Positions 1,673-14,806 of a DNA stretch of 17,009 nucleotides are shown one piece after another (positions within the stretch are counted from its first letter, which is position 1; each line of letters opens with the position of its first letter). Origin of the DNA: Acinetobacter chinensis (GTDB taxonomy: Bacteria; Pseudomonadota; Gammaproteobacteria; Pseudomonadales; Moraxellaceae); NCBI RefSeq assembly GCF_002165375.2, contig NZ_CP032127.1, positions 1-17,009 on the forward strand, in the 5' to 3' direction. A model generated the notes under the pieces. It was not told where the DNA came from. It did no database searches and saw nothing but the letters and a program-made list of their open reading frames with translations. The position numbers and the translations under genes were made by a program.

Positions 1673-1700
1673 ATTTCGTATAAGGTGTATTATGTTAATT
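1673..1700. other. pdif site (XerC-XerD orientation): ATTTCGTATAA-GGTGTA-TTATGTTAATT
   Basis: This is a 28-bp 11-6-11 site matching the plasmid dif-like XerC/XerD consensus of Acinetobacter plasmids. It forms the left boundary of the msr(E)-mph(E) module. Confidence 0.85.
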
Positions 1701-2123: not shown

Positions 2124-3599
2124 ATGAGTTTAATTATTAAAGCGAGAAACATACGCTTGGATTATGCTGGGCGTGATGTTTTGGATATTGATGAATTGGA
2201 AATTCACTCTTATGACCGTATTGGTCTTGTGGGTGATAACGGAGCAGGAAAGAGTAGTTTACTCAAAGTACTTAATGGCGAAATTGTTTTAGCCGAAGCG
2301 ACATTACAGCGTTTTGGTGATTTTGCACATATCAGCCAACTGGGCGGAATCGAAATAGAAACGGTCGAAGACCGGGCAATGTTATCTCGCCTTGGTGTTT
2401 CCAATGTACAAAACGACACAATGAGTGGCGGAGAGGAAACTCGTGCAAAAATTGCTGCCGCATTTTCCCAACAAGTACATGGCATTCTAGCGGATGAACC
2501 AACCAGCCACCTTGATCTCAATGGAATAGATCTACTTATTGGTCAACTTAAAGCATTTGATGGAGCATTACTTGTTATCAGTCATGACCGATATTTTCTT
2601 GATATGGTTGTAGACAAGATATGGGAGTTAAAAGACGGTAAAATTACGGAATATTGGGGTGGTTACTCGGATTACTTGCGTCAAAAAGAAGAAGAGCGAC
2701 AACACCAAGCCGTAGAATATGAGCTGATGATGAAGGAACGGGAGCGATTAGAATCTGCTGTGCAAGAAAAACGCCAGCAAGCTAATCGATTAGACAATAA
2801 GAAAAAAGGAGAAAAATCCAAAAACTCTACCGAAAGTGCTGGACGACTTGGGCATGCAAAAATGACTGGCACCAAGCAAAGAAAACTGTATCAGGCAGCT
2901 AAGAGTATGGAAAAGCGTTTGGCTGCATTAGAAGATATTCAAGCACCAGAGCATTTGCGTTCTATTCGTTTTCGTCAAAGTTCAGCCCTAGAACTGCACA
3001 ATAAGTTCCCGATTACGGCAGATGGTCTGAGCTTAAAATTTGGTAGCCGTACTATCTTTGATGACGCTAACTTTATAATACCGCTTGGCGCTAAAGTCGC
3101 TATAACTGGATCGAATGGAACAGGGAAAACGTCCTTGTTAAAAATGATATCAGAACGTGCTGATGGATTAACCATATCTCCAAAAGCTGAAATTGGCTAC
3201 TTTACACAAACAGGATATAAATTTAACACGCATAAATCTGTGCTCTCCTTTATGCAGGAAGAGTGCGAGTACACAGTTGCGGAAATTCGTGCAGTATTGG
3301 CTTCAATGGGGATCGGAGCGAATGATATTCAAAAAAACTTATCCGACTTATCGGGAGGTGAAATCATCAAACTGCTTTTATCCAAAATGCTTTTAGGAAA
3401 ATATAATATTTTGCTTATGGATGAACCAGGAAACTATCTTGACCTAAAAAGTATTGCCGCATTAGAAACAATGATGAAGTCCTATGCAGGAACTATTATC
3501 TTCGTATCTCATGACAAGCAATTGGTCGATAATATTGCTGACATTATCTACGAGATCAAAGACCACAAAATCATCAAGACTTTTGAGAGAGATTGTTAA
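2124..3599 (+). CDS. msr(E): Msr(E) ABC-F ribosomal-protection protein (macrolide/streptogramin B resistance)
   Basis: The 491-aa protein has two ABC ATPase domains: Walker A 'GDNGAGKS' and 'GSNGTGKT', and signatures 'MSGGE' and 'LSGGE'. These are joined by a charged linker with no TM domain. I recognise the sequence as Msr(E). An AGGAG SD lies 9 nt upstream. Confidence 0.95.
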
Positions 3600-3654
3600 T
3601 GATAGCCAATCTAATCCGAACATTAATTATTGAACTCTTTAAAGGAAATTAAAA

Positions 3655-4539
3655 ATGACAATTCAAGATATTCAATCACTTGCTGAAGCACACGGCTTGT
3701 TGCTTACGGACAAAATGAATTTCAATGAAATGGGCATTGATTTTAAGGTCGTTTTTGCTCTTGATACAAAGGGGCAACAATGGTTGCTGCGTATTCCTCG
3801 TCGTGATGGCATGAGGGAACAAATCAAGAAAGAAAAACGCATTTTAGAATTGGTAAAAAAACATCTTTCTGTAGAGGTTCCTGATTGGAGAATTTCATCT
3901 ACAGAATTAGTGGCTTATCCCATACTTAAAGATAATCCTGTTTTAAATTTGGATGCTGAAACCTATGAAATAATTTGGAATATGGACAAAGATAGCCCGA
4001 AATACATAACATCTTTGGCAAAAACCTTATTTGAAATCCATAGTATTCCTGAAAAAGAAGTTCGGGAAAATGATTTGAAAATTATGAAACCTTCAGATTT
4101 AAGACCTGAAATAGCAAACAATTTGCAGTTAGTAAAATCTGAAATTGGTATAAGTGAGCAATTGGAAACCCGCTACAGAAAATGGTTGGATAATGATGTT
4201 CTATGGGCAGATTTCACCCAATTTATACATGGCGATTTATATGCTGGGCATGTACTAGCTTCAAAGGATGGAGCTGTTTCAGGCGTTATTGATTGGTCAA
4301 CAGCCCATATAGATGACCCAGCGATTGATTTTGCTGGGCATGTAACTTTGTTTGGAGAAGAAAGCCTCAAAACTCTAATCATCGAGTATGAAAAACTAGG
4401 GGGTAAAGTTTGGAATAAACTATATGAACAGACTTTAGAAAGAGCAGCGGCCTCTCCTTTGATGTATGGTTTATTTGCCTTAGAAACTCAAAATGAAAGC
4501 CTTATCGTTGGAGCAAAAGCTCAGTTGGGAGTTATATAA
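3655..4539 (+). CDS. mph(E): Mph(E) macrolide 2'-phosphotransferase
   Basis: The 294-aa protein has an APH-type kinase fold ('HGDLYAGHVL', 'GVIDWSTAHIDDPAIDF'). It lies immediately downstream of msr(E), as in the known msr(E)-mph(E) pair. Confidence 0.95.
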   Translation: MTIQDIQSLAEAHGLLLTDKMNFNEMGIDFKVVFALDTKGQQWLLRIPRRDGMREQIKKEKRILELVKKHLSVEVPDWRISSTELVAYPILKDNPVLNLDAETYEIIWNMDKDSPKYITSLAKTLFEIHSIPEKEVRENDLKIMKPSDLRPEIANNLQLVKSEIGISEQLETRYRKWLDNDVLWADFTQFIHGDLYAGHVLASKDGAVSGVIDWSTAHIDDPAIDFAGHVTLFGEESLKTLIIEYEKLGGKVWNKLYEQTLERAAASPLMYGLFALETQNESLIVGAKAQLGVI

Positions 4540-4650: not shown

Positions 4651-4678
4651 ATTTAACATAAAATTTCTTATGTGAAGT
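4651..4678. other. pdif site (XerD-XerC orientation): ATTTAACATAA-AATTTC-TTATGTGAAGT
   Basis: An 11-6-11 site inverted relative to the site at 1673. It forms the right boundary of the msr(E)-mph(E) module. Confidence 0.85.
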
Positions 4679-6975: not shown

Positions 6976-7003
6976 AATTCGTATAACGTGTATTATGTTA
7001 ATT
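6976..7003. other. pdif site (XerC-XerD orientation): AATTCGTATAA-CGTGTA-TTATGTTAATT
   Basis: An 11-6-11 site followed by the same TTTAGA flank as the site at 1673. It forms the left boundary of the tet(39) module. Confidence 0.85.
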
Positions 7004-7053: not shown

Positions 7054-8241
7054 TTATGGAACTCCAGAATATTTATTCAGGCGATACTTAAGCAATAAGG
7101 GTAGGGTGATTACATAAAGTATTGCAGCTAATGCCCATACCATTCCAGGAGCTGATGCCTGAGTCATAAAATAGAGGCTAGTAACTAATACAGGACCAAT
7201 TATAGCCCCCAGACTATTAAAACTGCTTAATAGCCCTTGTAATTCACCTTGTCTTTCATCACTAATACCTCTGGACATCATTGCTTGCAAAGCAGGAACG
7301 GCTACTCCACCAAGGGCAAACAATGGTAACAACGCAAAAGGCACCCATTCTTCAACAGCAATAGATAAAAGAAGTAAACCAATTGCATCGCAAGCTATTC
7401 CACATAACAACGTATTTTTCTCTCCAAACCTCTTTACCATAGGGGCGATAGCAAAAGCCTGTGCAATAGAATGGCATATTCCATAACTAGCAAGGGAAAC
7501 ACCTGCAATAAATATACTCCAGCCATAACGATCCTGCCCATAGATAACCCATAAAGTTGCGGGGACTTGTGAAACCAATGTGATAATTAAAAAGATACCA
7601 AGCAATGGAGCCATATTAGGTTGAGTGATCAAATAGGATAATTTCTTTAATATTGATTGCTCCTGAACCTTCTCAGTCATTTTATTGCTGTGTTTTGATT
7701 CTTTTAATAAGACTGCTGTCATTATTAAATTAATCCCATTCATAAAAGCAGCAGCAAAGAACGGTGCATGTAAGTTCCATTCACCCAAAACTCCACCTAT
7801 TACCGGACCCGCTATAAACCCAATACCAAAGACAGCTCCAAGGAGACCAAACCTTTTTGCACGCTCATGGGCTGGAGTAATATCTGAAACATAAGCTGTT
7901 GCAACAGCCATGTTGGCACCTGTAATTCCCGCAAAAATACGACCAATATATAGCCACAATAGAGAAGGAGCAGCAGCCATTAGGAGATAATCAGCCGTTG
8001 CACCAGCAATTGAAATAATTAATACAGGTCGACGTCCAAATCGGTCACTCAACGCTCCAAGGATAGGTGCAAAAATGAACTGCATCAGAGCATACACAGC
8101 TAATAAAGCACCATAGTGAACACCGCCTGCTTCAGCTCCAGCCAATGACCGTAATAATTCAGGCAAGATCGGCATAATTAAACCAATCCCAACAGCATCC
8201 AGAAATATAGTGATTAAAATCACGCTCAATGATTTCTTCAC
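7054..8241 (-). CDS. tetA(39): TetA(39) tetracycline efflux MFS transporter
   Basis: A 12-TM MFS protein with 'LDAVGIGLIMPILPELL' and 'LSDRFGRRPVL' motifs, divergent from a TetR gene across tetO operators. The GTG at 8241 gives a 395-aa product starting 'MKKSLSVILITIF'. The track's 8286 start would run through the operator region. Confidence 0.92.
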   Translation of the reverse strand: MKKSLSVILITIFLDAVGIGLIMPILPELLRSLAGAEAGGVHYGALLAVYALMQFIFAPILGALSDRFGRRPVLIISIAGATADYLLMAAAPSLLWLYIGRIFAGITGANMAVATAYVSDITPAHERAKRFGLLGAVFGIGFIAGPVIGGVLGEWNLHAPFFAAAFMNGINLIMTAVLLKESKHSNKMTEKVQEQSILKKLSYLITQPNMAPLLGIFLIITLVSQVPATLWVIYGQDRYGWSIFIAGVSLASYGICHSIAQAFAIAPMVKRFGEKNTLLCGIACDAIGLLLLSIAVEEWVPFALLPLFALGGVAVPALQAMMSRGISDERQGELQGLLSSFNSLGAIIGPVLVTSLYFMTQASAPGMVWALAAILYVITLPLLLKYRLNKYSGVP

Positions 8242-8249
8242 AAATGCCT

Positions 8250-8303
8250 TCTCTAGCAATGATAGAATTAATATTCTCTCACACACTCCCTATCAGTGAT
8301 AGA
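8250..8303. promoter_or_regulatory. Divergent tetA/tetR control region with two tetO-like operators
   Basis: TCCCTATCAGTGATAGA (8287-8303) is a near-consensus tetO palindrome. TCTCTAGCAATGATAGA (8250-8266) is a second, related palindrome. Confidence 0.75.
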
Positions 8304-8306
8304 TTT

Positions 8307-8948
8307 ATGAGTAAAAAAGATATTGCACCTCAACGTCTGACACGTGAAATAGTCCTGCGTACCGCATTGGATATGTTGAATGAAGAAGGCATAGATTCAA
8401 TAACCACACGCAAGCTAGCTCAACGATTGGGTATTAAATCTCCAACTCTATATTGGCATTTCAAGAATAAATCCTTGTTAATGGAAGCAATGGCGGAAAC
8501 CATTATAAATGAACACCATTTAGTTTCTTTACCCATCGATGGGATGACATGGCAAGATTGGTTGCTCGCTAATTCTGTAAGCTTTCGTCGAGCACTACTA
8601 GCTTACCGTGATGGTGCTCGTCTACATGCAAGAACTAGCCCCAGTCAAGGACATTTCAACACGATTGAGGCCCAAGTTGCGCTGTTATCTCATGCTGGGT
8701 TTTCTCCTGTTGAAGCAGTTGCATTACTTATGACATTAGGAAGGTTTATTGTTGGGTGGGTCCTTGAGGAGCAGCAAGAAGAAATAAGATCAGACCCACC
8801 ATTCGAAGCCGATCCAACTATATATCCACTCATGCTCCAAGGAGTGAATACCTTACAAAATATGAATGCGGATGACATTTTTGAAAATGGGATTCGTATG
8901 GTGATTATCGGTGCTGAAAGACAACTTGATATTAAAATGCAAACTTAA
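8307..8948 (+). CDS. tetR(39): TetR(39) tetracycline repressor
   Basis: A TetR-family HTH ('TTRKLAQRLGIKSPTLYWHFKNK'). ATG 8307 follows the operator directly, whereas the track's 8229 start would overlap tetA and the operators. Confidence 0.92.
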   Translation: MSKKDIAPQRLTREIVLRTALDMLNEEGIDSITTRKLAQRLGIKSPTLYWHFKNKSLLMEAMAETIINEHHLVSLPIDGMTWQDWLLANSVSFRRALLAYRDGARLHARTSPSQGHFNTIEAQVALLSHAGFSPVEAVALLMTLGRFIVGWVLEEQQEEIRSDPPFEADPTIYPLMLQGVNTLQNMNADDIFENGIRMVIIGAERQLDIKMQT

Positions 8949-9004: not shown

Positions 9005-9020
9005 ATTTAACATAATAGAG
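9005..9020. other. Left part of an IS-disrupted pdif site: XerD arm ATTTAACATAA plus start of the central region
   Basis: The XerD arm is identical to those at 4651 and 14400. Joined to 10307-10318 it reconstitutes ATTTAACATAA-TAGAGC-TTATACGAAAC. Confidence 0.65.
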
Positions 9021-9077: not shown

Positions 9078-9956
9078 TTAAGCCACCTTGTTTTGTTGGG
9101 GTAGCTGATCATAGTAAAACTCATTTGGTGTCATTTTGTCTAGACTCGAATGAGGTCGTTTCAAATTATAAAACTCAAAATATGCACTTAATTGCTTTTT
9201 CGCATCTGTGACACTGCTATAAGCTTTGAGATACACCTCTTCATATTTAACGCTCCGCCATAATCGTTCAACCATCACATTATCTACCCATCGACCTTTA
9301 CCATCCATACTGATTTGAATGCCATTTGATTTCAATACATCAATAAATGCATCACTGGTAAACTGGCTGCCTTGGTCTGTATTAAATATTTCAGGTCGAC
9401 CATATTTTTCAATCGCTTCATTTAAAGCCGAAATACAAAAATCCACCTCCATACTAATCGATACCCTATGCGCAAGTACCTTGCGGCTATGCCAATCAAT
9501 CACAGCACATAAATAAACAAAGCCTTTTGCCATAGGGATATACGTTATATCCGTAGACCACACTTGATTACTGCGCTGAATAGCCAACCCTTTGAGCAGA
9601 TATGGATATTTACGGTGAGCTTGATTAGCCTGGCTTAAATTTGGTTTGCAATATAACGCCTGAATACCCATTTTCTTCATTAAAGTACGTGTATGACGTC
9701 GTCCTATATGATGTCCTTGACGATTCAACAAATCACGCATCATACGACTGCCTGCAAAAGGATATTGCATATGTAATTCATCAATACATCGCATCAGCTT
9801 CAGATCTGATGCACTCACAGGTTTTGGGCGATAGTAATAACAACCACGGGAGACTTTCAGCAGCTTAGCTTGCTTAGATACTGAAATCTGAAGTGAGTCG
9901 TCGATTAACTTTTGTGGTTGAAGCGGCCCAGTTTCTTCAACACACCTTCTAAAAAA
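9078..9956 (-). CDS. IS3-family transposase OrfB (DDE integrase core), expressed as an OrfAB fusion by -1 frameshift
   Basis: The -1 frame is open from 9956. The slippery heptamer T TTT TTA lies at 9950-9956 on the minus strand, inside the orfA/orfB overlap. An rve core is present ('WSTDITYI...', 'FNTDQGSQFTS', 'VERLWRSVKYE'). Confidence 0.8.
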   Translation of the reverse strand, partial: FFRRCVEETGPLQPQKLIDDSLQISVSKQAKLLKVSRGCYYYRPKPVSASDLKLMRCIDELHMQYPFAGSRMMRDLLNRQGHHIGRRHTRTLMKKMGIQALYCKPNLSQANQAHRKYPYLLKGLAIQRSNQVWSTDITYIPMAKGFVYLCAVIDWHSRKVLAHRVSISMEVDFCISALNEAIEKYGRPEIFNTDQGSQFTSDAFIDVLKSNGIQISMDGKGRWVDNVMVERLWRSVKYEEVYLKAYSSVTDAKKQLSAYFEFYNLKRPHSSLDKMTPNEFYYDQLPQQNKVA

Positions 9957-10210
9957 TCAATTTCTAATGCCTGCTCACCGATTTTTGCATGTAGTTTTTT
10001 TAGATCGATGGGTGGTTCTGTTGGAGCTTTTGATTGATCGAAAGCTTGCGAGGAAGCTGAGATCAATTGATTTTTCCAGTCAATAATTTGGTTTTGATGA
10101 ACATCAAACTCAGCACTCAATTCAGCAAGTGTTTTTTCTGCTTTAATCGCAGCAAGTGCTACCTTAGCTTTAAAATCATTTGAATGATTTCTTCTTGGTC
10201 TACGTGCCAT
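9905..10210 (-). CDS. IS3-family transposase OrfA (HTH)
   Basis: 'MARRPRRNHSNDFKAKVALAAIKAEKTLAELSAEFDVHQNQIIDWKNQL' is a typical IS3 OrfA with a leucine-zipper-like tail. The track ORF starts 4 codons earlier, at 10222. Confidence 0.85.
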   Translation of the reverse strand: MARRPRRNHSNDFKAKVALAAIKAEKTLAELSAEFDVHQNQIIDWKNQLISASSQAFDQSKAPTEPPIDLKKLHAKIGEQALEIDFLEGVLKKLGRFNHKS

Positions 10211-10301
10211 AAAATACTCCATATATTGATGTTTATAACATCATTTGAGGAGCAGAATATCACTTATAGGAGTTGTTCAAATTTACGGATCCATCTCTTA
10301 A

Positions 10302-10814: not shown

Positions 10815-11282
10815 CTATGCCACCTTATTGCTATTAACCAATACGTTAATACCAACAAATATGGTTAAGACTGATTGCAAGAAACTTGCAATAAATAATC
10901 CAACGAAAAACTTCAATAAAATTGACAAATTAATAGCTTCTGTTTTAGCAAAACCAAGTATTGATAGAAAGCCGGCCAAAGATAGGTAGATAAGACACGA
11001 TACCCATAAACAAGCAAAAGCTACTCCGAACTTTCTACGGTAGTTATTAACTCCTGGCTTAGATAGTCCGTATACCAACGTTACAATCATTGCTACGATT
11101 CCAAACATTGCTATTGAGTAACTCAATAGCGCAGTTGCAAGATCTTTGGAATTTTTATAGAAGCTAAAAGTAAAAAAGTTATTGAGATAGTGGAAATAGG
11201 CACACTCTATCAGAAGCCCAATTAGCGGGGTTGTAAAGATAAGCAATACGATCATCCATCTGTTCTGGGACTTCTTGTTCAT
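10815..11282 (-). CDS. RexB-like small inner-membrane protein with four predicted TM helices
   Basis: About 155 aa from ATG 11282, with an AAGG 9 nt upstream; the track uses TTG 11291. Four hydrophobic segments are present: WMIVLLIFTTPLIGLLIECAYF, LATALLSYSIAMFGIVAMIVTLVYGL, FGVAFACLWVSCLIYLSLAGFLSILGF and LSILLKFFVGLFIASFLQSVLTIFVGI. It lies directly downstream of the RexA-like gene. Confidence 0.6.
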   Translation of the reverse strand: MNKKSQNRWMIVLLIFTTPLIGLLIECAYFHYLNNFFTFSFYKNSKDLATALLSYSIAMFGIVAMIVTLVYGLSKPGVNNYRRKFGVAFACLWVSCLIYLSLAGFLSILGFAKTEAINLSILLKFFVGLFIASFLQSVLTIFVGINVLVNSNKVA

Positions 11283-12135
11283 ACTCTTCAACCTTATCTT
11301 TTAGCTCTACATTATTCTCAATTTTTTCCTTTATCTCATCGAAAACCTTACTTTCTTCAGTGCTTTTAATCTCGTCATATAGTGCACCAGCACTATGGAT
11401 ATAAAAATCTTTTACATTATCTTCAAGATTTTGTTTTCCTCGTAAAATAATGCCTTTGATACCATCATCCTCCATAGATACCAATGTTTTTTTAATAGTG
11501 TCAGTTAAAGATTTCCTTGATGCCGGCTTAATAATGATTTCAAAACTTTCAATAACTTCTAGATCATTAGGATTAGTCGATCCTAAGAAAAATTCTTTAA
11601 ATGATTCCCCTAGACTACTATCTTTACGAACTAAAAACCGTGTAGTTCCAATAAATGGTAGTGTCATAGCCTGATTCTTTGTAATTTCAGTTTTCAAAGG
11701 ATGAACAACAAAACTAATATCCTGAATTCTGAGCATAACAAGTAAGTTATTTATATACATTTGGAATGCTGTAAACTTTGGAGAAAGTACTCTTGATGCA
11801 AATCCAAATACTCTTAGTGTTGGATGAAAATACACATACGATGCAAACCCTAAACTCTCATCTTTACTTAATAAAGACTGAATCTCATAAGCCTTAATTT
11901 CATCGTCTTTCTTCTCAATTCTTTTAATAATTTCTCTATCTTTAGTCTGTACAAATAAATAAAAGCTATTTACGACAGGAAGTAAATATAGGTTTTCGCC
12001 AGAATGTCGGTTTTGCTTAGCGAATGGTAAAGCTTCATTCGAAGTTGATGATTTAATAAAATCATTGATCTCCATTCTAAATTGGCTTTTATCTTCAAAT
12101 TTTTCAAAACAATAAGTAAAGTAGTTAAGTTTCAA
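11179..12135 (-). CDS. RexA-like protein (phage-exclusion / abortive-infection sensor component)
   Basis: A 318-aa soluble protein with a TTG start and a strong SD GAGGGG 8 nt upstream. The blocks 'YLFVQTKDREIIKRI', 'DESLGFASYVYF...FGFASRVLSP', 'PFIGTTRF' and 'EIIIKPASRK' line up with my recollection of lambda RexA ('FLFTKTNDKSLVQKI', 'DESLGFPSFLFV...IGFARTVFGP', 'HFIGRTT', 'DIVIKPKFKR'). Confidence 0.6.
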   Translation of the reverse strand: MKLNYFTYCFEKFEDKSQFRMEINDFIKSSTSNEALPFAKQNRHSGENLYLLPVVNSFYLFVQTKDREIIKRIEKKDDEIKAYEIQSLLSKDESLGFASYVYFHPTLRVFGFASRVLSPKFTAFQMYINNLLVMLRIQDISFVVHPLKTEITKNQAMTLPFIGTTRFLVRKDSSLGESFKEFFLGSTNPNDLEVIESFEIIIKPASRKSLTDTIKKTLVSMEDDGIKGIILRGKQNLEDNVKDFYIHSAGALYDEIKSTEESKVFDEIKEKIENNVELKDKVEEYEQEVPEQMDDRIAYLYNPANWASDRVCLFPLSQ

Positions 12136-12357
12136 GTGTTAATCCCCTCATTAATCAAAACATAATATCTTAAATATCAACTAAAAGTGCTCACCTTTAA
12201 GGGCGTGTAAAGAACCTAGTTCTTATATTATTTCCACATATCAATCTTAGTCTGGTACAGCTCCACAAATGTTAGCTGTCTCACGACAAATTTTTTCATA
12301 AGTTTTACTTTCAAAAAAAACTTGCAATCATATGCATTCATTATCAATATATCATTT

Positions 12358-12369
12358 TGTCCTAGGACA
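12358..12369. promoter_or_regulatory. Perfect 12-bp palindrome TGTCCTAGGACA 20 nt upstream of the wHTH gene (candidate operator)
   Basis: The sequence is self-complementary and is followed by a further GGACA copy (12372-12376). It lies between a TTGCAA -35-like hexamer (12322-12327) and the ATG at 12389. Confidence 0.35.
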
Positions 12370-12388
12370 GCGGACACTGTGAATTAAA

Positions 12389-13015
12389 ATGCTTAAGTCT
12401 CAAGATATTCTTGTTTTAGTAAAGTTGCTATCTATTCAAAATGGATTACGTACATCGTCAAACTTCAGTAGGACCTATAGCAACGATTACTCGGACTTCT
12501 ATTTAAAAAGATCTCTTAGCCATCTGTTGTCAGTTAGAGGACTGGCCGAATCTATTGTTATGGGTAAAAGTGAAGTATCAGAATGCATTAAACGATTAGT
12601 AAAAGTTGGCCTACTAGTTATTCACAATCAAAACTTTTCTCAAAGATTGGACTTAGCTAGTCTGGATTGGGATATTAATAAAAGGGGATTTTTCCATTTA
12701 GTCATTTATAGTTTTCAATATTTTTTCCCAGCAGAACTAAAATCAATGGATTTTGGGCTTCCTACAGCATTTTCTAAAGAAGGTCTAAATTCTCTCTTAG
12801 CATATAGCTCTCCAGTACCTTATATTTGGCCAATACAAACCTATAAATCTATTTCAGGCATAGCAGTTGAACCTATGCATAAATCAATACCATATGCAGC
12901 AATTAATGATGAATATCTCTATGAAATATTTGCAATAATTGATATTTTTAGAATGGGTTCTCCTAGAGAGAAACATATCGCAGAAAAACTATTTTTAGAC
13001 ATTTTAGGCTTGTAA
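12389..13015 (+). CDS. Winged-helix DNA-binding protein, AbiEi-like putative antitoxin/regulator
   Basis: A 208-aa protein with an HTH ('LSVRGLAESIVMGKSEVSECIKRLVKVGLL') in the N-terminal half and a separate C-terminal domain. It is the first gene of a tightly packed three-gene operon. Confidence 0.55.
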   Translation: MLKSQDILVLVKLLSIQNGLRTSSNFSRTYSNDYSDFYLKRSLSHLLSVRGLAESIVMGKSEVSECIKRLVKVGLLVIHNQNFSQRLDLASLDWDINKRGFFHLVIYSFQYFFPAELKSMDFGLPTAFSKEGLNSLLAYSSPVPYIWPIQTYKSISGIAVEPMHKSIPYAAINDEYLYEIFAIIDIFRMGSPREKHIAEKLFLDILGL

Positions 13016-13020
13016 AACGA

Positions 13021-13719
13021 ATGAACTCACCATTAATTATAATGCTAGAAAAAGTAGCAAATGCCCTAACTCAAGATCTTAGGCAGGAAATGGTATTCAT
13101 TGGTGGATGTACTACTAGTCTACTGTTAGATCCTGAAAATCATTCATTAGCTACAAGATACACATATGATGTGGATCTAATTGTAGATATAACAACTCAT
13201 GCAGAATGGTATTCACTAGAAGAGAAGATTCGGAAATTAGGTTTCGTGAATGATCAAAATGATAATATTTTATGTCGCTATAGATTAGGGAATGACTTGA
13301 TTGTTGACTTTATGCCTACAGATTCAAATATCTTAGGTTTTAGTAACTATTGGTATGAACAAGCTATTACTCACAAGATTACGTATTGTCTACCAAATAA
13401 AACTGAAATAAACATACTCGAATCCCCATATTTTTTGGCTACAAAATTTGAAGCTTACAAAGGTCGAGGAAATAATGACCCCTTAATGAGTAAAGATATA
13501 GAAGATATTTTAACTGTATGTATGGGTCGAAGCTCTCTAGTTGAAGAAATATACTCTAGCCCTCAAGAGTTAAGAGATTATCTCTCTAATGTACTATTAG
13601 AGTTACACCATCATTCAGAATTTGAAATTGTCTTAGATGATCAATGTCGATATGGTTCAAAAGAAAGAGTTAGGCAAGTTATAAACGCAATAATCAAACA
13701 ATGGAATAAAGCTTTCTAA
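13021..13719 (+). CDS. Nucleotidyltransferase-fold protein, AbiEii/MenT-like putative toxin
   Basis: A 232-aa protein with a Pol-beta-type NTase signature: 'FIGGCTTSLL' (G-G/S loop) followed by 'YDVDLIVD' (DxD). A helical C-terminal part contains 'PYFLATKFEAYKGRG...SKDIEDIL'. It starts 5 nt after the wHTH gene's stop. Confidence 0.6.
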   Translation: MNSPLIIMLEKVANALTQDLRQEMVFIGGCTTSLLLDPENHSLATRYTYDVDLIVDITTHAEWYSLEEKIRKLGFVNDQNDNILCRYRLGNDLIVDFMPTDSNILGFSNYWYEQAITHKITYCLPNKTEINILESPYFLATKFEAYKGRGNNDPLMSKDIEDILTVCMGRSSLVEEIYSSPQELRDYLSNVLLELHHHSEFEIVLDDQCRYGSKERVRQVINAIIKQWNKAF

Positions 13720-14393
13720 TGATTTTTTTCCATTTTACTCATAATCAATGCCTTCCTAACAAACATGGAATAGATGGAACCGGTGAACTTAAATCTAATC
13801 CGCTTTTAGAACTTTGCTATGTAATTGATGGACATAGTAAACATCCCAATAGCGCTATTCTGGTATCTAATTTCCATAAATTTATTCTGGAAAAAAAAGA
13901 AGAATTTACAGATTTAATAAATGAAGATGAGGTAATTAGAGAATTCCTTGAAAGAGTAATTAAAGAATTTCACAAATCTCAATATAGACAGCTCATCCCA
14001 GCAGCCATGAGTATCTGCCTAATCATTTTTAGTCCCCAAAAGGTCTACAGTGTGCATCTAGGAGACTGCCGTTTAGGTCTAATTTTTGAAAAAAAGTTAG
14101 AGTGGTTAACTTATCCACATAATTTAACAATGTGCCGGATTATAGATATTGAAACTTTAGACTTAGAAGAAACATTAAGATCTTCAGCTGATAATCATAT
14201 TGTAACTAATTCTTTAAATACTAAACGCCTAAAAAAAATTGAAATAAATGTATTTAATAGAAAAAAAGGAACATATCTTTTAGCAACAGATGGTTTATGG
14301 AAATTAGAGGTTCATAAAATTCTATCAACTGTAAAAAATAAAGAAAACTATAATGAAATTGATGATTTAGCTTTCATTATAGCTAATGACTAG
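13719..14393 (+). CDS. Minimal PP2C-family (PPM) Ser/Thr phosphatase-like protein
   Basis: A 224-aa protein with the four acidic PPM motifs in the canonical order: 'VIDGHS', 'HLGDCRLG', 'LLATDGLW' and 'IDDLAFII'. Its ATG overlaps the NTase stop (TAATG). Confidence 0.65.
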   Translation: MIFFHFTHNQCLPNKHGIDGTGELKSNPLLELCYVIDGHSKHPNSAILVSNFHKFILEKKEEFTDLINEDEVIREFLERVIKEFHKSQYRQLIPAAMSICLIIFSPQKVYSVHLGDCRLGLIFEKKLEWLTYPHNLTMCRIIDIETLDLEETLRSSADNHIVTNSLNTKRLKKIEINVFNRKKGTYLLATDGLWKLEVHKILSTVKNKENYNEIDDLAFIIAND

Positions 14394-14399
14394 TTCTTC

Positions 14400-14430
14400 A
14401 TTTAACATAAAAAAATCTCTTATGCGAAGC
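14400..14430. other. pdif-like site (XerD-XerC orientation) with an atypical 9-bp central region: ATTTAACATAA-AAAAATCTC-TTATGCGAAGC
   Basis: The XerD arm is identical to those at 4651 and 9005. The XerC arm (reverse complement GCTTCGCATAA) resembles the other XerC arms. The arms are 9 bp apart instead of 6 bp because of an A7 run. Confidence 0.45.
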
Positions 14431-14563
14431 TTGCTTGTTAAAAACCATTTGTGAAGATCTGTATCAAGATTATTGAGAGTATCTATAAAAAATGATGATG
14501 TAGCTATCAAGTCAACCAACTATCTTTGGACATTTAGTTTTCGAATATTATAGGCGGATAAAA

Positions 14564-14806
14564 ATGAGTTTTATGGAACAAATAGAAGAATCTCCAGCTA
14601 AACTGATAGCGATAGCTTTGACGGTAAATTTAATCCTTTTATCATGGATTTTGGATGGCTTCCTCCAAACAAATTTGATTGCATTTAGTCTTCATCACCC
14701 TGATGGAGATATTTTAATATTCACAATAATAGTACTGCTTCTTCTTACTTATATGATTAGTGGTAAATCAGGGCTATTAATGAAATTTTTTTCATTTTTT
14801 GACTAA
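14564..14806 (+). CDS. Small hypothetical membrane protein (two predicted TM helices)
   Basis: An 80-aa ORF with hydrophobic segments 'LIAIALTVNLILLSWILDGF' and 'ILIFTIIVLLLLTYMI'. GGA lies about 7 nt upstream of the ATG. Confidence 0.45.
   Translation: MSFMEQIEESPAKLIAIALTVNLILLSWILDGFLQTNLIAFSLHHPDGDILIFTIIVLLLLTYMISGKSGLLMKFFSFFD

What the first reader, a model, noticed from the sequence alone, without database searches (positions are those of the whole stretch)
12389..14393. Three-gene operon wHTH + AbiEii/MenT-like nucleotidyltransferase + PP2C phosphatase: candidate undescribed tripartite TA / abortive-infection system
Seen in sequence:
- Three co-directional genes are packed with a 5-nt gap and a TAATG start/stop overlap.
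- Gene 1 has a winged-HTH ('LSVRGLAESIVMGKSEVSECIKRLVKVGLL').
- Gene 2 has a Pol-beta NTase signature ('FIGGCTTSLL' ... 'YDVDLIVD').
- Gene 3 has all four PPM/PP2C acidic motifs ('VIDGHS', 'HLGDCRLG', 'LLATDGLW', 'IDDLAFII').

Established knowledge:
- A wHTH antitoxin paired with an NTase toxin is the AbiE (AbiEi/AbiEii) type IV TA / abortive-infection architecture.
- Related MenT NTases are toxic by modifying tRNA.
- As I recall, one MenT toxin is held inactive by antitoxin-mediated phosphorylation.

Inference:
- I do not know of a dedicated PP2C phosphatase coupled to an AbiE-like pair.
- It could act as a switch that activates or resets a phospho-regulated toxin or antitoxin, making this a three-component system.
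- The operon sits next to a RexAB-like locus in an AT-rich accessory segment, a context typical of defence islands.
Basis: partly seen in the sequence, partly recalled or inferred. Interest (0 to 1): 0.85.

Follow-up and report, generated by a model that had tools for sequence, protein, structure and literature searches.

The report
Catalogued toxin–regulator–phosphatase defence candidate (PDC-M21)
The three genes are real and form an operon, but the trio is already listed as the untested phage-defence candidate PDC-M21; it looks like a MenT/AbiE-type tRNA-modifying toxin with a DNA-binding partner, plus an optional phosphatase that could switch a phosphate-silenced toxin back on.

Summary
Three co-directional genes lie at 12389-13015 (A), 13021-13719 (B) and 13719-14393 (C), with a 5-nt gap and a TAATG overlap.

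**Already catalogued.** All three proteins match PADLOC-DB candidate PDC-M21 (A 5e-39, B 6e-77, C 2e-23). Payne et al. 2024 defined it by "guilt-by-embedding" and left it untested. The triad is therefore not undescribed.

**What the genes are:**
- **B** folds most like the M. tuberculosis toxin MenT1. It keeps the GG, DxD, D and K catalytic set, plus an invariant Thr (T48) at MenT1's T39 phospho-acceptor position.
- **C** is a minimal Stp1-type PP2C with all the acidic motifs.
- **A** has a winged helix and an unannotated C-terminal domain. It shows no detectable relationship to AbiEi.

**Survey of 79 assessable genome loci:**
- A+B is the obligate core.
- C is present in 40 loci, degraded in 4 and absent in 35.
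- The cassette often sits between hsdR and hsdM, and once inside BREX.
- A conserved dyad, GTCC-NN-GGAC, lies about 21 nt upstream of A in 59 of 81 loci.

**Best model (inferred):** A represses the operon and induces B auto-phosphorylation; C removes the phosphate. No function has been tested for any of the three genes.

Interest is moderate.

The parts
12322..12327 (+). TTGCAA hexamer, a possible -35 element of the cassette's own promoter (tentative)
   Evidence: It lies in the roughly 75-nt stretch upstream of A that is conserved in four Acinetobacter plasmids. The consensus promoter scan did not call a promoter here, so this is inference only.
12358..12369 (.). Perfect 12-bp palindrome TGTCCTAGGACA (core GTCC-NN-GGAC), the probable operator bound by protein A
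   Evidence: This is the only GTCCNNGGAC match in the 17-kb window, and it ends 19 nt before the ATG of A. The same dyad lies within 80 nt upstream of A in 59 of 81 loci, with its end 7-37 nt (median 21) from the start codon. Background in the same loci is 16 matches in 885 kb. It is conserved in four Acinetobacter plasmids, and the TA-to-GC centre change in p2_100004 preserves the symmetry.
12389..13015 (+). Gene A (PDC-M21A), 208 aa: an N-terminal helix (MLKSQDI...), a winged HTH at about residues 45-80, and a conserved unannotated C-terminal domain; the proposed autoregulator and antitoxin
   Evidence: PADLOC PDC-M21A scores 5e-39. MarR_2 matches weakly and in 8 of 36 family members. A precedes B in essentially every locus, usually with a 4-nt overlap. 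The C-terminal motifs (GIPTAF, YVWP, PLFKSVP, DAIRLGxxRE) are conserved. The model is poor (pLDDT 64, residues 111-169 below 50), and no AbiEi or MenA match was found.
13021..13719 (+). Gene B (PDC-M21B), 232 aa: a DUF1814-superfamily, MenT1-like nucleotidyltransferase; the proposed toxin/effector
   Evidence: PADLOC PDC-M21B scores 5.7e-77. The model has pLDDT 90.4 and pTM 0.89. The top Foldseek PDB hits are MenT1 8an5/8an4/8rr5 (E 2e-5, prob 1.0, TM 0.50-0.62), followed by MenT3/TglT. G28-G29, R46, T48, D50, D52, D96, K142, R149, D159 and D162 are invariant or nearly so in 86-87 homologues. R46-x-T48-x-D50-x-D52 aligns with MenT1 R37-x-T39-x-D41-x-D43.
13719..14393 (+). Gene C (PDC-M21C), 224 aa: a minimal PPM/PP2C Ser/Thr phosphatase; a facultative third component
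   Evidence: Pfam PP2C scores 25.7 bits, above the gathering score of 20.3. PADLOC PDC-M21C scores 1.6e-23. The family profile matches SaSTP 2pk0 at 5.4e-18 and other bacterial PP2Cs. D19, D37 and D116 are invariant; G115, D191, G192, D215 and D216 are at least 90% conserved. C is intact in 40 of 79 assessable loci and fragmentary in 4.

Best explanation
The operon is an Acinetobacter-plasmid copy of the catalogued but untested defence candidate PDC-M21. I read it as a MenT/AbiE-like (DUF1814) toxin-antitoxin or abortive-infection module with a built-in phosphatase.

**Shown here**
- B has the fold and catalytic residues of the tRNA-3'-end nucleotidyltransferase toxin MenT1. This includes an invariant Thr at the phospho-acceptor position.
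- A is a winged-helix protein that always precedes B, usually with overlapping stop and start codons.
- A deeply conserved dyad (GTCC-NN-GGAC) lies just upstream of A.
- C is a PP2C with all its metal-binding motifs intact.
- The cassette is repeatedly embedded in type I R-M and BREX loci.

**Inferred**
- A binds the dyad and represses the operon.
- A also binds B and induces B to phosphorylate itself on T48, which silences it. This is the mechanism demonstrated for MenA1-MenT1, MenA3-MenT3 and AbiEi-AbiEii.
- C removes that phosphate, so toxin activity depends on the balance between A and C.
- When A is lost, titrated away or no longer made (for example on phage infection or plasmid loss), C quickly converts the stored phospho-toxin into active toxin. 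Translation then stops through tRNA 3'-end modification.
- Cassettes without C would depend on a host phosphatase or on newly made toxin.
For: - **Identity:** all three PADLOC PDC-M21 models hit strongly. The cassette is defined in Payne et al. 2024 Supplementary Table 8.
- **B is MenT1-like:** Foldseek's top hits are MenT1, including the T39-phosphorylated form. The HMM alignment puts RYT48YD50VD52 on MenT1 RFT39RD41VD43. The MenT1 residue roles come from PMC11375011. T48 is invariant in 86 of 86 homologues.
- **C:** it passes the Pfam PP2C threshold. Its family profile's best PDB hit is SaSTP (5e-18), the same enzyme shown to dephosphorylate AbiEii-p in vitro. All acidic motifs are conserved.
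- **Coupling:** A, B and C distances co-vary (Spearman 0.87-0.90), and C presence tracks the B phylogeny (0.78 against 0.50 by chance, p < 0.001).
- **Autoregulation:** the dyad is present in 59 of 81 loci, against a background of 0.0014 per 80 nt.
- **Defence context:** 13 of 44 upstream neighbours are HsdR and 15 of 50 downstream neighbours are HsdM. One locus has the order BrxB-BrxC-[ABC]-PglX. Shedu and NERD genes are neighbours elsewhere, and RexAB is adjacent here.
- **Open question addressed:** Arrowsmith et al. 2026 name phosphatase-driven reactivation of DUF1814 toxins as unresolved.
Against: - Nothing functional has been tested for any PDC-M21 gene.
- A is not detectably related to AbiEi or MenA, and its C-terminal half is poorly modelled. 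Its antitoxin role therefore rests on analogy and gene order.
- T48 is equally invariant in cassettes without C (34 of 34). MenT1 T39 also contributes to catalysis, so conservation alone does not prove phospho-regulation.
- MenT4 shows that not all DUF1814 toxins are phosphorylated.
- C is absent from about 44% of the loci sampled here. If the first column of Payne's table is an instance count, C is absent from most A-B cassettes in RefSeq (713 for the pair against 166 for the triad). C is therefore not essential to the core mechanism.
- C has no sensor domain, so how it would avoid constitutive activation of the toxin is unexplained.
- Structural similarity to MenT1 is moderate (TM 0.5-0.6), and sequence-level similarity to PDB toxins is marginal (E 1.2 for 8an4).
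- In the window's clade, motif I of C reads KHGID instead of the family's DNRD.
Confidence: 0.45

Rival explanations
1. A+B is the whole toxin-antitoxin/Abi machine, and C does not act on B. C could instead protect the module against phage protein kinases that disarm defences by phosphorylation, making it an anti-anti-defence accessory. Alternatively it could act on A or on a host or phage protein.
For: C is facultative and has been lost repeatedly: 33 A+B loci and 4 loci with C remnants, and 713 against 166 in Payne's table. C evolves much faster than A or B (mean distance 0.69 against 0.46-0.49), as expected for a component facing phage proteins. The phage T7 kinase broadly disarms bacterial defences by phosphorylation (PMC13645617).
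Against: B carries an invariant phospho-acceptor Thr in a family where that exact residue is the off-switch. PP2Cs of the type closest to C dephosphorylate AbiEii-p and MenT3-p in vitro. C co-diverges with B. No phage-kinase link to this cassette is known.
Confidence: 0.2
2. On this plasmid the cassette works mainly as a post-segregational-killing (plasmid-addiction) module rather than as phage defence. The biochemistry could be the same as in the best explanation.
For: The cassette sits on small Acinetobacter Rep_3 plasmids, including a 7,979-bp plasmid made up of little more than rep, rexA and the triad. It ends at a pdif-like site, as mobile plasmid modules do. According to the preprint's authors, S. 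agalactiae AbiE gave no phage protection in E. coli against 32 phages.
Against: Most relatives are chromosomal and embedded in type I R-M or BREX loci, or sit next to Shedu or NERD genes. This pattern is typical of defence genes and is not explained by plasmid maintenance. The two roles are not mutually exclusive.
Confidence: 0.2
3. B is a small-molecule (aminoglycoside or lincosamide type) nucleotidyltransferase resistance gene, controlled by a MarR-like repressor (A).
For: The Figure 6E legend of Payne et al. lists 'AAD(2'')' next to 'PP2C'. LnuA is a weak Foldseek hit (E 0.037). The plasmid carries other resistance genes.
Against: The best structural matches are the MenT toxins. The T-x-D-x-D phospho-acceptor motif and the K...R...DxxD motif are DUF1814 features. 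Embedding in R-M and BREX loci, and a partner phosphatase, make no sense for a drug-modifying enzyme.
Confidence: 0.05

Closest known systems
PDC-M21 (PADLOC-DB v2.0.0; Payne, Hughes, Fineran & Jackson 2024, bioRxiv 10.1101/2024.01.29.577857)
   Same: All three proteins match the A, B and C models, in the same order and adjacent to one another. The cassette is embedded in type I R-M and BREX loci, as in the discovery criterion.
   Different: Nothing structural differs. PDC-M21 is only a predicted candidate, with no tested phenotype or proposed mechanism. The points added here are the MenT1-like fold, the phospho-acceptor Thr, the facultative nature of C and the conserved operator.
MenA1-MenT1 (Rv0078B/Rv0078A) of M. 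tuberculosis, a type VII-like TA
   Same: B's closest solved fold is MenT1. The R-x-T-x-D-x-D motif, the catalytic Lys and the later acidic residues are shared. In MenT1 the Thr (T39) is auto-phosphorylated on antitoxin binding, which inactivates the toxin.
   Different: According to the AbiEii preprint, MenA1 lacks a wHTH and belongs to no regulator superfamily. A is a 208-aa wHTH protein with a different C-terminal domain. No phosphatase gene is described as part of menAT1 in the papers read here. Sequence similarity between B and MenT1 is marginal (15-18% identity).
AbiEi-AbiEii (L. lactis / S. agalactiae; COG5340-COG2253, Pfam PF08843)
   Same: The architecture matches: a roughly 200-aa wHTH protein upstream of, and overlapping, a DUF1814-superfamily NTase. 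Autoregulation through inverted repeats is plausible. AbiEii is switched off by AbiEi-induced phosphorylation of T65, and the PP2C SaSTP reverses this in vitro.
   Different: The window B falls below the PF08843 gathering score, and A matches neither the AbiEi families nor structure 6Y8Q. The phosphatase acting on AbiEii is a housekeeping enzyme encoded elsewhere, whereas here a PP2C is encoded in the operon.
Bacterial Stp1/PstP/tPphA-type PPM (PP2C) phosphatases
   Same: The C family profile aligns over nearly its full length with SaSTP, tPphA, S. aureus Stp1, MspP and PppA. All the acidic metal-binding motifs are conserved.
   Different: C is a minimal 224-aa catalytic domain encoded on mobile defence cassettes. 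It evolves fast (mean pairwise distance 0.69). It uses GDC instead of GDSR, and DGS/DGH instead of DGMGG. In the Acinetobacter clade motif I reads KHGID.

Membership tests
PDC-M21 (PADLOC candidate system) | Hits to the PDC-M21A, PDC-M21B and PDC-M21C HMMs | tested here: met
   A 5e-39, B 5.7e-77, C 1.6e-23, each covering nearly the full length.
PDC-M21 (PADLOC candidate system) | Three adjacent co-directional genes in the order A>>B>>C (CAS_00093: FAM_01665>>FAM_00091>>FAM_01402) | tested here: met
   ORF coordinates and junctions; cassette definition in Supplementary Table 8.
PDC-M21 (PADLOC candidate system) | Anti-phage activity | not testable with these tools
   The authors describe the 145 PDCs as untested. 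No paper holds the term 'PDC-M21', and the cold-seep validation used other PDCs.
AbiE (AbiEi/AbiEii) | Toxin belongs to Pfam AbiEii (PF08843) above the gathering score | tested here: not met
   The window B scores 13.8 bits against a cut-off of 22.5, E 0.057, matching residues 18-73 only. Of 16 diverse homologues, 12 hit at E <= 0.1, with a best of 8e-5. The relationship is at superfamily level only.
AbiE (AbiEi/AbiEii) | Antitoxin is an AbiEi/COG5340 protein (sequence family or 6Y8Q fold) | tested here: not met
   No AbiEi Pfam hit for A or for any of 36 family members. Neither Foldseek nor the profile search of the PDB found AbiEi. The A model is of low confidence, however.
AbiE (AbiEi/AbiEii) | Pol-beta NTase motifs (hG[GS], DxD, a third acidic residue, K...R...D motif) | tested here: met
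   G28-G29, D50/D52, D96, K142, R149 and D159/D162 are invariant.
AbiE (AbiEi/AbiEii) | Negative autoregulation through inverted repeats in the promoter | tested here: inconclusive
   A conserved GTCC-NN-GGAC dyad lies upstream of A in 59 of 81 loci. Binding and repression were not tested.
MenT / DUF1814 type VII TA toxins | MenT-like fold | tested here: met
MenT / DUF1814 type VII TA toxins | Ser/Thr phospho-acceptor two residues before the DxD | tested here: met
   T48 aligns with MenT1 T39 and is invariant in 86 of 86 homologues.
MenT / DUF1814 type VII TA toxins | Antitoxin-induced auto-phosphorylation that abolishes NTase activity; tRNA 3'-end modification | not testable with these tools
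   This needs Phos-tag or mass spectrometry and tRNA nucleotidyl-transfer assays.
PPM/PP2C phosphatases | Pfam PP2C above the gathering score | tested here: met
   PF00481 scores 25.7 bits against a cut-off of 20.3. The NCBIfam Stp1 equivalog scores 44 bits against a cut-off of 230, so C is not an Stp1 equivalog.
PPM/PP2C phosphatases | Conserved metal-binding Asp residues (motifs I, II, GDS-like, DG, DN/DD) | tested here: met
   D19, D37 and D116 are invariant, and D191, G192, D215 and D216 are at least 90% conserved in 32 sequences. The profile aligns motif for motif with SaSTP. The final DD/DN motif lies outside the printed alignment and is assigned by pattern.

The most novel reading that the evidence does not exclude
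The operon-encoded PP2C is a dedicated 'eraser' for a phospho-silenced DUF1814 toxin. That would make PDC-M21 the first toxin-antitoxin or abortive-infection system carrying its own reactivating phosphatase. It would be a three-part switch: A induces the toxin's self-phosphorylation, C removes the phosphate, and A also controls transcription through a deeply conserved GTCC-NN-GGAC operator. It would also make the module portable to hosts that lack a suitable housekeeping phosphatase.
Probability: 0.35. Interest if true: 0.7.

Novelty: new member of a known kind. Interest (0 to 1): 0.5.

Why it matters
The 2024-2026 work on MenT1, MenT3 and AbiEii showed that these widespread tRNA-modifying toxins are switched off by antitoxin-induced self-phosphorylation. 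How they are switched back on remains open, and the authors name cellular phosphatases as the missing piece.

PDC-M21 is a natural case in which a PP2C of the same type is encoded in the same operon as a MenT1-like toxin. That toxin keeps the phospho-acceptor Thr. About half of the close relatives lack the phosphatase, which provides a built-in comparison. The reactivation question therefore becomes directly testable with three small genes.

The conserved operator adds a simple handle on regulation. For annotation, the practical message is that this locus should be labelled PDC-M21 (a candidate defence system), not a new system and not AbiE.

Tried and rejected
- **Structure of A.** The model is poor (pLDDT 64, residues 111-169 below 50). 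The fold search gave only non-significant MarR/ArsR hits. The C-terminal domain stays unassigned, and no AbiEi or MenA relationship could be shown or excluded.
- **Promoter and terminator scans.** The consensus scan over 12000-14700 found fewer promoter-like sites than shuffled sequence and no terminator. It was uninformative.
- **Word-indexed searches for A and C.** These returned only close relatives, 22 and 12 proteins. The family alignments were built from genome loci instead.
- **Alternative third genes.** I looked for a replacement phosphatase after A+B where C is missing. The Marinobacter Metallophos protein is paired with an SMC-like ATPase and looks SbcCD-like. The other downstream genes are defence, housekeeping or IS genes. 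This idea was rejected.
- **Phage carriage.** Only 1 relative of B was found in 2.9 million viral contigs, so the cassette is not typically phage-borne.
- **Obligate RexAB link.** This was rejected. RexAB occurs without the triad on A. baumannii plasmids, and the triad occurs without RexA in other loci.
- **Literature.** Searches for 'PDC-M21' and for DUF1814 together with PP2C found no paper.
Full report
**Observation.** The A/B junction is TAA-aacga-ATG, a 5-nt gap. The B/C junction is TAATG. All the quoted peptide motifs are present. Upstream and divergent lie a RexA gene (Pfam PF15969, 2.3e-54) and a RexB-like gene (PADLOC 7e-7). GC content falls to 0.28-0.33 across this segment.

**Source of the window.** It is an Acinetobacter Rep_3 plasmid. 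It carries an ABC-F gene plus a macrolide-phosphotransferase-like gene, an MFS efflux gene with a TetR regulator, IS elements and a resolvase. About 83% identical copies of rexA plus the triad sit on A. johnsonii pAJ14 (7,979 bp) and on A. pittii p2_100004.

**The triad is already catalogued.**
- Against PADLOC-DB v2 the three proteins hit PDC-M21A (5e-39), PDC-M21B (5.7e-77) and PDC-M21C (1.6e-23).
- PDC-M21 comes from Payne, Hughes, Fineran and Jackson (bioRxiv 10.1101/2024.01.29.577857). They collected gene cassettes embedded in BREX, DISARM and type I R-M systems.
- Their Supplementary Table 8 lists CAS_00093, FAM_01665>>FAM_00091>>FAM_01402, with the number 166 and the decision 'Assign as candidate PDC-M21'.
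- The authors state that the 145 PDCs are untested.
- The Figure 6E legend lists 'Hyp', 'AAD(2'')' and 'PP2C' among the example multi-gene PDCs. This is probably the triad, but the figure itself could not be viewed.
- The same table lists the two-gene cassette FAM_01665>>FAM_00091 with 713 and 'Reject'.
- No paper in the searchable library contains 'PDC-M21'. A later study that validated some PDCs tested other candidates.

The system remains functionally uncharacterised.

**Gene B.**
- Pfam AbiEii is only a sub-threshold hit for the window protein: 13.8 bits against 22.5. Twelve of 16 diverse homologues reach E <= 0.1.
- The AlphaFold model is confident, with pLDDT 90.4 and pTM 0.89.
- Its best matches among solved structures are M. 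tuberculosis MenT1 (8an5, 8an4, and 8rr5 'phosphorylated at T39'; E 2e-5 to 3.5e-3, prob 1.0, TM 0.50-0.62). MenT3/TglT follows. The drug-modifying enzyme LnuA is much weaker.
- Across 86-87 full-length homologues, G28-G29, R46, T48, D50, D52, D96, K142, R149, S157, D159, E161, D162 and R170 are invariant or nearly so.
- The profile alignment to MenT1 places R46-Y-T48-Y-D50-V-D52 on R37-F-T39-R-D41-V-D43.
- In MenT1, D41xD43 binds Mg2+, K137 contacts the gamma-phosphate, and T39 is the residue auto-phosphorylated on antitoxin binding, which abolishes activity (PMC11375011).
- B therefore belongs to the DUF1814 superfamily, is nearest to MenT1, and retains the phospho-acceptor position.
- The family is moderately large: 1,071 clusters at 50% identity with E <= 1e-30 among 1.84 billion representatives.

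**Gene C.**
- It passes Pfam's PP2C threshold, 25.7 bits against 20.3.
- A profile of 32 family members matches S. agalactiae Stp1 (2pk0) at 5.4e-18 over almost the whole length. It also matches tPphA, S. aureus Stp1, MspP and PppA.
- The acidic motifs are conserved. In window numbering they are D19 (family consensus DNRD), D37-G38 (DGS/DGH), G115-D116 (GDC), D191-G192 (TDGFW) and D215-D216 (DDxS).
- C is thus very probably an active, minimal PPM phosphatase.
- In the Acinetobacter clade motif I reads KHGID, with the Asp retained.

**Gene A.**
- Evidence for a winged helix is weak but consistent. The window protein scores MarR_2 at E 0.013, and 8 of 36 family members match (best 1.6e-6). The best PDB profile hits are wHTH regulators.
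- The structural model is poor in residues 111-169. Foldseek gave only non-significant MarR/ArsR hits, with no AbiEi or MenA match.
- The C-terminal half is nevertheless strongly conserved, with motifs such as GIPTAF, YVWP, PLFKSVP and DAIRLGxxRE. This implies a specific function that remains unassigned.
- A is therefore AbiEi-like only in architecture and position, not by detectable homology.

**Synteny survey.** A pattern scan of one genome per species found at least 591 relatives of B, and 80 loci were kept. I called ORFs in these loci and built iterated HMMs for A, B and C.
- A precedes B in essentially every locus, mostly with a 4-nt overlap.
- Among 79 assessable loci, 40 have an intact C, 4 have C fragments and 35 have none.
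- These 80 loci are the ones closest to the window's B. The fraction with C is therefore probably inflated relative to Payne's figures of 166 against 713.
- Where C is missing, the next gene is never another phosphatase. It is HsdM, Shedu SduA, a NERD nuclease, an MmeI-like gene, a Cas3-like helicase, housekeeping genes or an IS element.
- Thirteen of 44 same-strand upstream neighbours are type I restriction subunits. Fifteen of 50 downstream neighbours are type I methyltransferases.
- One marine contig has the order BrxB-BrxC-[A-B-C]-PglX.
- Pairwise distances of A, B and C are tightly correlated (Spearman 0.87-0.90), and C evolves fastest.
- The presence of C follows the B phylogeny (nearest-neighbour concordance 0.78 against 0.50 by chance) but not perfectly. 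C has therefore been gained or lost several times.
- T48 is invariant whether C is present (42 of 42) or absent (34 of 34).

**A conserved operator-like dyad, apparently not reported before.**
- A perfect palindrome, TGTCCTAGGACA, lies at 12358-12369, ending 19 nt before the start codon of A. It is conserved in four Acinetobacter plasmids, and a TA-to-GC centre change in one of them preserves the symmetry.
- The core GTCC-NN-GGAC lies within 80 nt upstream of A in 59 of 81 loci. These come from Acinetobacter, Pseudomonas, Rhizobiales, Sphingomonadales, Geobacter and a CPR genome.
- The dyad ends 7-37 nt (median 21) before the start codon.
- The same motif occurs only 16 times in the remaining 885 kb of those loci, and only once in the whole window.
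- This argues that A is a sequence-specific autoregulator, and that the cassette keeps its own control even inside hsd or BREX operons. Binding itself is inferred, not shown.

**Mechanism.**
- Established knowledge: MenA1-MenT1, MenA3-MenT3 and AbiEi-AbiEii silence their NTase toxins by antitoxin-induced auto-phosphorylation of the Thr or Ser two residues before the DxD. The housekeeping PP2Cs PstP and SaSTP remove this phosphate in vitro. How toxins are reactivated in cells is stated to be open (PMC11375011; bioRxiv 10.64898/2026.01.19.700257).
- Best-supported model for PDC-M21: A represses the operon at the dyad and drives B to phosphorylate T48. C erases the mark. Loss or titration of A, on phage infection or plasmid loss, lets C convert the stored phospho-B into active toxin, which blocks translation by extending tRNA 3' ends.
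- Steps shown here: the folds, the catalytic and phospho-acceptor residues, the operon structure, the co-evolution, the operator conservation and the defence-locus embedding.
- Steps inferred: toxicity, the A-B interaction, phosphorylation, the substrate of C and the trigger.
- Weak points: C is facultative, C has no sensor domain, T39/T48 also has a catalytic role, and MenT4 shows that not all DUF1814 toxins are phospho-regulated.
- I give this model about 0.45.

**Rivals.**
- C counters phage kinases or acts on a target other than B (0.2). The phage T7 kinase is reported to disarm defences by phosphorylation (PMC13645617), and C evolves fast.
- The module serves mainly as plasmid addiction on these small plasmids (0.2). 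This is compatible with the same biochemistry.
- B is a drug-modifying NTase (0.05). This is contradicted by the MenT-type fold and the genomic context.

**Verdict.**
- The domain calls are largely correct. The AbiE label is not supported as membership, and the novelty claim is wrong because PADLOC already lists the triad.
- Points added here: a MenT1-like fold with a conserved phospho-acceptor, evidence that A+B is the core and the PP2C is an optional add-on, a deeply conserved operator, and a literature-grounded, testable phospho-switch model.
- Interest is moderate, at 0.5.

Noticed in passing
window 1673-1700, 4651-4678, 6976-7003, 9005-9015, 14400-14430: pdif-like XerC/XerD sites bracket the resistance modules. 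Full C/D sites lie at 1673-1700 and 6976-7003 (0-1 mismatch; none expected by chance), and a D/C site lies at 4651-4678. A XerD-type half-site at 14400-14410 starts 7 nt after the stop codon of gene C, followed by TTATGCGAAGC after an atypical 9-nt spacer. The half-site at 9005-9015 lacks a recognisable XerC arm; IS3-family transposase genes lie downstream (9078-10222). The RexAB plus PDC-M21 block may therefore be one dif module.
   Followed up: partly
window 10815-12135 (- strand): A RexA (318 aa) and RexB-like (158 aa) pair lies divergent from the triad. The same pair occurs at about 89% identity on several A. baumannii plasmids that lack the triad (H3-H8), so the two systems are separable neighbours.
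   Followed up: partly
window 2124-4539 and 7054-8948: One module carries an ABC-F protein (491 aa) plus an APH-family phosphotransferase (294 aa), resembling msr(E)/mph(E). Another carries an MFS efflux pump plus a TetR repressor, resembling a tet module. The gene names are from memory; only the Pfam domains were tested.
   Followed up: no
L039:5230-5277 and L057 upstream of gene A: Some loci have much longer palindromes built around the same core. Pseudomonas gingeri has 16-bp arms (ACATGTCCACAGTCCATGGACTGTGGACATGT), and L057 has 10-bp arms around GTCCATAGAC. These may be extended or double operators.
   Followed up: no
L025, L031, L059, L064 downstream of gene B: Four loci carry truncated or split remnants of the phosphatase gene next to an A-B pair (in L064 B itself is split and in L025 A is truncated). 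This is direct evidence of ongoing loss of C.
   Followed up: partly
L003:5888-9678 and L084 (Marinobacter): Here A-B without C is followed by a Metallophos protein (about 375 aa) and an 882-aa SMC/LmuB-like ATPase. This is an SbcCD-like pair with weak hits to Lamassu, Gabija and PARIS ATPase models, and may be another defence system.
   Followed up: partly
L044:5986-7809: In a Pseudobdellovibrionaceae MAG the B ORF runs on into a MobA/VirD2 relaxase-like segment (607 aa in total). This is probably a frameshift, a fusion or an assembly artefact.
   Followed up: no
Payne et al. 2024, Supplementary Table 8: The two-gene cassette A>>B (FAM_01665>>FAM_00091) is listed with 713 and 'Reject'. The B family also pairs with a different upstream family (FAM_00075>>FAM_00091, 730, 'Reject'). 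The NTase family thus has several alternative partners.
   Followed up: no
L089 (IMGVR_UViG_3300048838_001812): This is the only viral contig, out of 2.9 million, that encodes a relative of B (40% identity). Its gene neighbourhood was not examined.
   Followed up: no
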